Source: a phage
Sequence record: PZ583739.1
DNA: 64,000 nt
Direction: 5' to 3' (one strand)
In this document: piece by piece, positions 21,553-22,008 of the stretch
Numbering within the stretch: the stretch's first letter is position 1
How the letters are laid out: each line of letters starts with the position of its first letter
Notes under the pieces: generated by a model
The model's input: only the letters and a program-made list of their open reading frames with translations
The model's database searches: none
What the model was told of the DNA's origin: nothing
Position numbers and translations under genes: made by a program

Positions 21553-22008
21553 CTACTTTAAATCCGCCGACCAATTTAATTTTAGCGGTTCTTTATATTC
21601 ACGGTCCAAAACAACCGGAATCTGGACTTCTCCTTTATACGTCAAAGGACCAACATTATAGGATAATGTTATGTGAGGAGTATAGTCCGGGAAATCATGT
21701 GTTGCGCCAATGGCTCGTGCATACATATGTCTGCAACTAAGATAATCTGAATTCAGTACAAGAACCAGGGTACTACCATCATCGGTTTTCCATACTTCCA
21801 GGTGTCCAGAGTTAGCGACTTCGAAACTACCAGAGGCAACAACATATGGAATATTTACTCTGGAATAACAAATAGTGGAATGGAATTTTTCGCGAGGAAC
21901 GGGATTAGGTACCTTAAGAGTGCGCTGAAGATTTTCCAGCGCATCAAGAGTTAATTCTGAAAATTTGGCTGCAACATAAAGTCCTTCAGAGACTTCATTT
22001 AATGTCAT
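21553..22008 (-). CDS. 57B: Acb1-like 2H phosphoesterase (gene 57B)
   Basis: Two H-x-T-x motifs (HSTICYS, HITLSY), 151 aa, immediately upstream of 57A as in T4. Confidence 0.7.

What the first reader, a model, noticed from the sequence alone, without database searches (positions are those of the whole stretch)
21553..22008. Acb1-type 2H phosphoesterase (gene 57B) with both H-x-T-x motifs intact
The 151 aa protein has HSTICYS and HITLSY motifs at the expected spacing and sits immediately upstream of 57A, as T4 Acb1 does. T4 Acb1 is known to degrade cyclic oligonucleotide signals of CBASS. Together with the internal-protein array and the macro gene, this end of the early region looks like an anti-defence island.
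Basis: partly seen in the sequence, partly recalled or inferred. Interest (0 to 1): 0.4.

Follow-up and report, generated by a model that had tools for sequence, protein, structure and literature searches.

The report
Ordinary T4-type Acb1 anti-CBASS gene
This is an intact copy of the well-studied phage gene acb1 (T4 gene 57B), whose enzyme destroys the cyclic-nucleotide alarm signals of the bacterial CBASS defence; it is correctly identified but already known.

Summary
Window 21553..22008, minus strand, is a 151-aa ORF with HSTI (H43/T45) and HITL (H112/T114).

It is an Acb1:
- Pfam PF23474 (Acb1): E=1.7e-59, full profile length.
- 82% identical to T4 gp57B/Acb1, the enzyme characterised experimentally.
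- 68% identical to the crystallised FBB1 Acb1 (PDB 7T26/7T27), E=9e-62.
- All nine residues named as catalytic or ligand-binding by Hobbs et al. 2022 are present.
- The gene order 3 - 1 - 57A - 57B - internal proteins matches T4 and distant Straboviridae.

The protein is 100% identical to a 'hypothetical protein' of Escherichia phage vB_EcoM_RZ (Gaprivervirus). The orthologue in phage EAWsc9 is already annotated 'anti-CBASS protein Acb1'.

- The gene is on the minus strand and lies transcriptionally downstream of 57A (TAATG stop/start overlap), not upstream.
- The macro-domain gene (3859..4332) is 17 kb away beside tk, so it is not part of a local island.
- The five adjacent internal-protein-like genes are real, but none is an orthologue of T4 IPI. 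Their anti-defence role is only inferred.
- The acb1/ipI 'anti-defence island' idea is already published.

Verdict: already known, low interest.

The parts
21553..22008 (-). acb1 (gene 57B) coding sequence, 151 aa plus stop
   Evidence: ORF. Pfam PF23474 Acb1, E=1.7e-59, profile positions 1-143 of 144. PDB 7T26 Acb1, E=9e-62. 82% identity to T4 57B. 100% identity to vB_EcoM_RZ gp179.
21871..21882 (-). First catalytic motif H43-S-T45-I (equivalent to T4 H44/T46)
   Evidence: Read from the sequence. H and T are invariant in the 9-sequence family alignment. Catalytic role shown for T4 H44 in PMC9117128.
21664..21675 (-). Second catalytic motif H112-I-T114-L (equivalent to T4 H113/T115)
   Evidence: Read from the sequence. 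H and T are invariant in the family alignment. The T4 H44A/H113A protein is catalytically dead in PMC9117128.
21556..21579 (-). C-terminal lid segment (residues 144-151, LNWSADLK) containing W146 (T4 W147)
   Evidence: Aligned with T4 LDWADDLK. Residues 145-152 form a lid that closes over the ligand, and W147 stacks on a base, according to PMC9117128.
22008..22244 (-). Gene 57A (tail-fibre assembly chaperone), immediately 5' of acb1 in the same transcription direction; its stop overlaps the acb1 start (TAATG)
   Evidence: Pfam GP57, E=4.6e-25. phrog_1002, tail fibre chaperone. Junction sequence.
22244..22921 (-). Gene 1 (dNMP kinase), upstream member of the conserved 1-57A-57B block
   Evidence: Pfam DNMK, E=4.3e-77. 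The same order is found in T4 and in Proteus, Acinetobacter, Vibrio and Aeromonas phages.
20033..21492 (-). Array of five internal-protein-like genes directly 3' of acb1 (21160..21492, 20879..21151, 20628..20870, 20317..20571, 20033..20257). This is context, not part of the enzyme.
   Evidence: Four match PHROGs named internal head or internal virion protein, and one matches phrog_3966 of unknown function. All start with an MKT[YF]xEF-type leader. The bodies are mutually unrelated except one pair, and none matches T4 IPI beyond the leader.

Best explanation
The ORF is the Gaprivervirus orthologue of phage T4 gene 57B, acb1. It encodes a small, metal-independent 2H phosphoesterase. [quoted passage not shown] Binding happens in a U-shaped pocket. 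Aromatic residues Y11, W73, F106 and W146 stack on the bases, E140 reads the adenine N6, and the C-terminal lid closes over the ligand. The strained ligand presents the adenosine 2'-OH for attack on the 3'-5' phosphodiester above the H43/T45/H112/T114 tetrad. Acid-base catalysis then proceeds through a 2',3'-cyclic phosphate intermediate to a linear 3'-phosphate product, which no longer activates CBASS effectors. The phage thereby escapes abortive infection. The gene is co-transcribed and probably translationally coupled with 57A. What is shown here: orthology, the intact ORF, conservation of every named functional residue, and synteny. What is inferred: enzymatic activity, substrate range and the in vivo effect for this particular protein.
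For: - Pfam PF23474 Acb1: E=1.7e-59, 200 bits against a cut-off of 27, covering 143 of 144 profile positions.
- phmmer against the PDB: 7T26/7T27 Acb1, E=9e-62, query residues 9-147.
- Identity of 82% to T4 57B and 68% to FBB1 Acb1.
- T4 residues Y12, H44, T46, W74, F107, H113, T115, E141 and W147, named in PMC9117128, are all present at window positions 11, 43, 45, 73, 106, 112, 114, 140 and 146.
- Y11, H43, T45, H112, T114 and E140 are invariant across nine family members down to 37% identity.
- The order 3 - 1 - 57A - 57B is conserved in six Straboviridae lineages.
- The protein is 100% identical to one in an independently isolated phage, and an orthologue is annotated 'anti-CBASS protein Acb1'.
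- Published experiments on T4 Acb1 and 9 further homologues show cleavage of 3'3'-cGAMP and cAAA.
Against: No experiment exists on this particular protein. The single-sequence AlphaFold model was unusable (pLDDT 38), so the fold rests on sequence identity to a solved structure. Eighteen percent of residues differ from T4, so quantitative differences in substrate preference cannot be excluded. PHROGs and many GenBank records label the family 'RNA ligase'. That is a legacy 2H/LigT-type label, not an experimental result.
Confidence: 0.95

Rival explanations
1. The protein is a generic 2H phosphoesterase that acts on RNA ends. It would be a LigT-like 2'-5' RNA ligase or a 2',3'-cyclic phosphodiesterase, for example in repair of host-cleaved tRNA. 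Cyclic-oligonucleotide cleavage would be secondary.
For: phrog_755 is labelled 'RNA ligase', and many phage records annotate the orthologue as 'RNA ligase' or 'RNA ligase/cyclic nucleotide phosphodiesterase'. The HxT/HxT tetrad is common to the whole 2H superfamily (established knowledge).
Against: The only Pfam family matched is the specific Acb1 family. No LigT or other 2H family passed E<0.1. The ligand-specific residues that stack on the cGAMP bases and read the adenine N6 are all conserved. The T4 orthologue was identified by activity-guided fractionation as the cGAMP-degrading activity of infected cells. No RNA-ligase activity has been reported in the papers read.
Confidence: 0.03
2. The gene is an inactive or decaying copy. 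Some T-even-like phages lose acb1 because it triggers Panoptes guard systems.
For: acb1 is naturally disrupted in phage Bas43, and Bas35 escapers of type II Panoptes carry acb1 mutations (PMC13577387). Loss of function is therefore a real evolutionary outcome in this family.
Against: The ORF is full length with no frameshift or premature stop. Every catalytic and ligand-binding residue is intact. The protein is identical in a second isolate and at least 95% identical in 34 phage records.
Confidence: 0.02

Closest known systems
Phage T4 Acb1 (gp57B, NP_049750.1)
   Same: 82% identity over the full length. Same length to within one residue. Identical HxT spacing. All nine named functional residues are conserved. 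Same position after 57A and before the internal-protein locus.
   Different: 27 substitutions, mostly at the N-terminus, in surface positions and in the lid (LNWSADLK versus LDWADDLK). The stop/start overlap with 57A is TAATG rather than ATGA. It is followed by five internal-protein-like genes instead of the single ipI.
Erwinia phage FBB1 Acb1 (PDB 7T26 apo, 7T27 with 3'3'-cGAMP)
   Same: 68% identity over 139 residues, E=9e-62. Catalytic tetrad, Y11, E140 and W146 are identical.
   Different: FBB1 has F where the window and T4 have W73/W74, and Y where they have F106/F107. Both are conservative aromatic swaps. FBB1 also has a one-residue insertion after position 79.
Acb1 of PDB 9Q2G/9Q2Y (165 aa, 'Anti-CBASS protein Acb1')
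   Same: Same family name. A weak but alignable match that includes both H-x-T motif regions (HVTV / HLTL).
   Different: Only a marginal sequence match (E=0.0034 and 0.037). This is a distant branch of the family and not the close relative.
2H phosphoesterase superfamily (LigT, CPDase, AKAP18-type; poxin-unrelated)
   Same: Two H-x-T/S-x motifs and metal-independent acid-base chemistry through a 2',3'-cyclic phosphate (established knowledge).
   Different: No Pfam 2H family other than Acb1 is matched. The lid and the base-stacking residues specific to cyclic oligonucleotides are Acb1 features.

Membership tests
Acb1 (Pfam PF23474; Hobbs et al. 2022) | Significant full-length match to the family profile, above the curated threshold | tested here: met
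   200.1 bits against a cut-off of 27, E=1.7e-59, profile positions 1-143 of 144.
Acb1 (Pfam PF23474; Hobbs et al. 2022) | Active-site HxT/HxT tetrad (T4 H44, T46, H113, T115) | tested here: met
   H43, T45, H112 and T114 are present. They are invariant in the 9-member alignment. The definition comes from PMC9117128.
Acb1 (Pfam PF23474; Hobbs et al. 2022) | Base-stacking aromatic residues (T4 Y12, W74, F107, W147) and the adenine-reading E141 | tested here: met
   Y11, W73, F106, W146 and E140 are all identical to T4.
Acb1 (Pfam PF23474; Hobbs et al. 2022) | Flexible C-terminal lid (T4 residues 145-152) | tested here: met
   Residues 144-151, LNWSADLK, align with T4 LDWADDLK with no truncation.
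Acb1 (Pfam PF23474; Hobbs et al. 2022) | Compact 2H phosphoesterase fold | tested here: inconclusive
   The single-sequence AlphaFold2 model had pLDDT 38.2 and was unusable. The fold is inferred from 68% identity over 139 residues to the crystal structure 7T26, which makes a different fold very unlikely.
Acb1 (Pfam PF23474; Hobbs et al. 2022) | Genomic position in T4-like phages: after gene 1 and 57A, next to the internal-protein locus | tested here: met
   The window order is 1 (22244..22921), 57A (22008..22244), acb1, then the internal-protein array. The same order occurs in T4 and five other Straboviridae lineages.
Acb1 (Pfam PF23474; Hobbs et al. 2022) | [quoted passage not shown] | not testable with these tools
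   Known for T4 Acb1 and nine homologues. Needs biochemistry for this protein.
Acb1 (Pfam PF23474; Hobbs et al. 2022) | Protects the phage from CBASS in vivo | not testable with these tools
   Plaque assays in PMC9117128 compare wild-type and delta-acb1 T4 on E. coli carrying CBASS operons, and test T4 Acb1 co-expressed with a type III CBASS operon against phage P1. Needs genetics for this phage.
LigT-type 2'-5' RNA ligase (the label carried by phrog_755) | Match to a LigT / 2'-5' RNA ligase profile | tested here: not met
   No Pfam family other than Acb1 at E<0.1. No NCBIfam hit. The 'RNA ligase' label appears only as a PHROG or GenBank name.

The most novel reading that the evidence does not exclude
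The Gaprivervirus Acb1 variant, 18% diverged from T4 including lid substitutions, might have a shifted substrate spectrum, for example one that spares the decoy nucleotides of Panoptes guard systems. Separately, the five-gene internal-protein array that replaces T4 ipI next to it might encode injected inhibitors of so far unidentified host defences. Nothing here tests either idea. All known specificity-determining residues are unchanged, which argues against a shifted spectrum.
Probability: 0.07. Interest if true: 0.5.

Novelty: already known. Interest (0 to 1): 0.08.

Why it matters
It matters little beyond correct annotation. An intact acb1 predicts that this phage can degrade adenosine-containing CBASS signals and cA3. 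It should therefore resist many CBASS systems, while being detectable by Panoptes-type guard systems that sense loss of cyclic nucleotides. This helps predict host range when choosing therapeutic phages. It also allows correction of the 'hypothetical protein' and 'RNA ligase' labels that most database records still carry for this gene.

Tried and rejected
- AlphaFold2 on the single sequence gave pLDDT 38.2 and pTM 0.32. The model was useless, so no fold search was run.
- NCBIfam has no model for this protein, which is uninformative.
- The claim that the macro gene belongs to a local island is rejected. The only Macro-domain ORF found is 3859..4332, beside thymidine kinase and 17 kb away. Pfam scans of 20 ORFs between 8.6 and 20 kb found no Macro domain.
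- Orthology of any adjacent internal protein to T4 IPI, the GmrSD inhibitor, is rejected. The best blastp hit has E=0.035 and is confined to the leader, and the PHROGs differ.
- The promoter and terminator scan around the gene gave counts close to the shuffle expectation: 15 promoter-like sites against 11.1±3.9, and 5 terminator-like sites against 2.6±1.7. No regulatory claim is made from it.

Full report
**Observation**

The ORF listing finds an ATG-initiated ORF at 21553..22008 on the minus strand, 151 aa. A script confirms exactly two H-x-[TS]-x motifs. HSTI lies at residues 43-46 (window 21871..21882). HITL lies at residues 112-115 (window 21664..21675). The two histidines are 69 residues apart. 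Composition-preserving shuffles give two HxT motifs 60-80 residues apart in only 132 of 20,000 trials. The decisive statistics are the homology scores below. The finding did not state the strand, which is minus.

**Identity**

- Against Pfam the protein hits only PF23474, 'Anti-CBASS protein Acb1'. The score is E=1.7e-59, 200 bits against a gathering cut-off of 27, covering positions 1-143 of the 144-position profile.
- Against all PDB sequences the best hit is 7T26/7T27, Acb1, E=9e-62 over query residues 9-147. This is the Erwinia phage FBB1 enzyme crystallised by Hobbs et al. 2022 (PMC9117128).
- tblastn against 50,697 phage records finds 1,479 records with a match. One is a 100% identical protein in Escherichia phage vB_EcoM_RZ. 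T4 itself matches at 82.1% identity over the full length.
- The surrounding DNA is 97-99% identical to Gaprivervirus phages such as P479, vB_EcoM_RZ, UPEC01 and VR26.
- In RefSeq the RZ protein is labelled 'hypothetical protein'. In phage EAWsc9 the 99%-identical orthologue is already annotated 'anti-CBASS protein Acb1'.

**Functional residues**

Hobbs et al. name an HxT/HxT tetrad (H44, T46, H113, T115), four base-stacking aromatic residues (Y12, W74, F107, W147) and the adenine-N6-reading E141. They also describe a C-terminal lid at residues 145-152. T4 numbering equals window numbering plus one. All nine residues are present in the window protein: Y11, H43, T45, W73, F106, H112, T114, E140 and W146. 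The lid is full length, LNWSADLK against T4 LDWADDLK.

I also aligned nine family members from Escherichia, Erwinia, Proteus, Acinetobacter, Vibrio, Aeromonas and Enterobacter phages, reaching down to 37% identity. In that alignment Y11, H43, T45, H112, T114 and E140 are invariant.

**Context**

On the minus strand the order is as follows:

| Gene | Window coordinates | Evidence |
|---|---|---|
| gene 3 | 22918..23598 | |
| gene 1, dNMP kinase | 22244..22921 | Pfam DNMK, E=4e-77 |
| 57A | 22008..22244 | Pfam GP57, E=5e-25 |
| acb1 / 57B | 21553..22008 | see above |
| five small ORFs | 20033..21492 | see next section |

The 57A stop and the acb1 start overlap by one base (TAATG), which suggests translational coupling. 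acb1 therefore lies downstream of 57A in the direction of transcription. T4 has the same 57A-then-57B order with an ATGA overlap. The 3 - 1 - 57A - 57B order recurs in Proteus, Acinetobacter, Vibrio and two Aeromonas phages.

**The 'island' claim**

The five ORFs 3' of acb1 all begin with an MKT[YF]xEF-type leader. Four match PHROGs named internal head or internal virion protein, and the fifth matches phrog_3966 of unknown function. They share only this leader with one another, apart from one pair at 32% identity. They share only the leader with T4 IPI as well (best E=0.035). None is therefore an orthologue of the one internal protein with a demonstrated anti-restriction role.

These five genes occupy exactly the slot of the single T4 ipI. 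That slot lies between 57B and a gene pair belonging to phrog_1692 and phrog_1411.

A Macro-domain gene does exist, at 3859..4332 on the minus strand (Pfam Macro, 32 bits, E=1.3e-7; phrog_335). It lies beside thymidine kinase, 17 kb from acb1. Pfam scans of 20 intervening ORFs found no other Macro domain.

The idea that acb1 next to ipI forms an anti-defence island is already stated by Hobbs et al.. For this window it is plausible for acb1 and the internal-protein array. It is untested for the internal proteins and unsupported for the macro gene.

**Mechanism**

This is inferred from the orthologues. The enzyme is a metal-independent 2H phosphoesterase. It captures cyclic di- or trinucleotides containing adenosine in a U-shaped pocket, and the lid closes over them. 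The rotated adenosine presents its 2'-OH to the 3'-5' phosphodiester above the His/Thr tetrad. [quoted passage not shown] Recent work adds a cost. Phages with intact acb1 are restricted by Panoptes guard systems, which sense loss of cyclic nucleotides. Natural or selected acb1 mutants escape (PMC13577387). The intact gene here thus predicts resistance to CBASS and sensitivity to Panoptes.

**Rivals**

- The 'RNA ligase' label on phrog_755 and on many GenBank records is a legacy 2H/LigT-type name. No LigT-type Pfam or NCBIfam family is matched, and the residues specific to cyclic nucleotides are conserved.
- A decaying gene is excluded by the intact ORF and residues, and by identity to a second isolate.

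**What failed**

The single-sequence AlphaFold2 model was unusable (pLDDT 38.2), so no fold search was made. The fold rests on 68% identity to a solved structure. Promoter and terminator scans were near the shuffle expectation.

**Verdict**

This is a correctly recognised, intact orthologue of a well-characterised anti-CBASS enzyme. It is identical to a protein already in GenBank and belongs to a curated Pfam family. It is already known and of low interest. Its practical value is limited to better annotation and prediction of host range.

Noticed in passing
window 20033..21492 (-): Five tandem internal-protein-like genes share only an N-terminal MKT[YF]xEF leader. Their bodies are otherwise unrelated, except 20317..20571 and 20033..20257 at 32% identity. 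They replace the single ipI of T4 in the slot between 57B and the phrog_1692/phrog_1411 gene pair. None is an orthologue of T4 IPI. The one at 21160..21492 is called 'profilin' in the EAWsc9 record and belongs to phrog_3966, of unknown function.
   Followed up: partly
window 3859..4332 (-): A Macro-domain protein of 157 aa (Pfam Macro, 32 bits; phrog_335 'phosphatase', E=9e-69) lies close to thymidine kinase (2911..3483). It has weak similarity to the macro domain of the DarG antitoxin (30 bits, far below the 250-bit cut-off). A role in reversing ADP-ribosylation is conceivable but was not examined.
   Followed up: partly
window 23603..24277 (-): An HNH-type homing endonuclease ORF (phrog_655, E=2e-56) is inserted between gene 3 and gene 2. 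It is absent from this position in the otherwise near-identical phage vB_EcoM_RZ, which instead has an endonuclease between genes 2 and 4. Endonucleases are annotated under the matching stretch in UPEC07, P479 and fPSFA.
   Followed up: partly
window 24259..25095 (-): The gene 2 (DNA end protector) ORF is 278 aa. Its first ~80 residues match a separate PHROG, phrog_32288 'HTH DNA binding protein'. Only residues 81-277 match the end-protector family. Its 5' end overlaps the endonuclease ORF by 19 bases.
   Followed up: no
window 18376..18528 (-): Only two tRNA genes, tRNA-Arg(TCT) and tRNA-Met(CAT), lie in the region where T4 carries eight tRNAs and segB.
   Followed up: no
window 21493..21552 (-): The 60-base spacer between acb1 and the first internal-protein-like gene contains a 7-bp inverted repeat (GTGTAGG...CCTACAC). 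It also has a weak sigma-70-like match (TGTACA-17-TATTAT). This may be a transcript-processing or promoter element for the internal-protein array.
   Followed up: no
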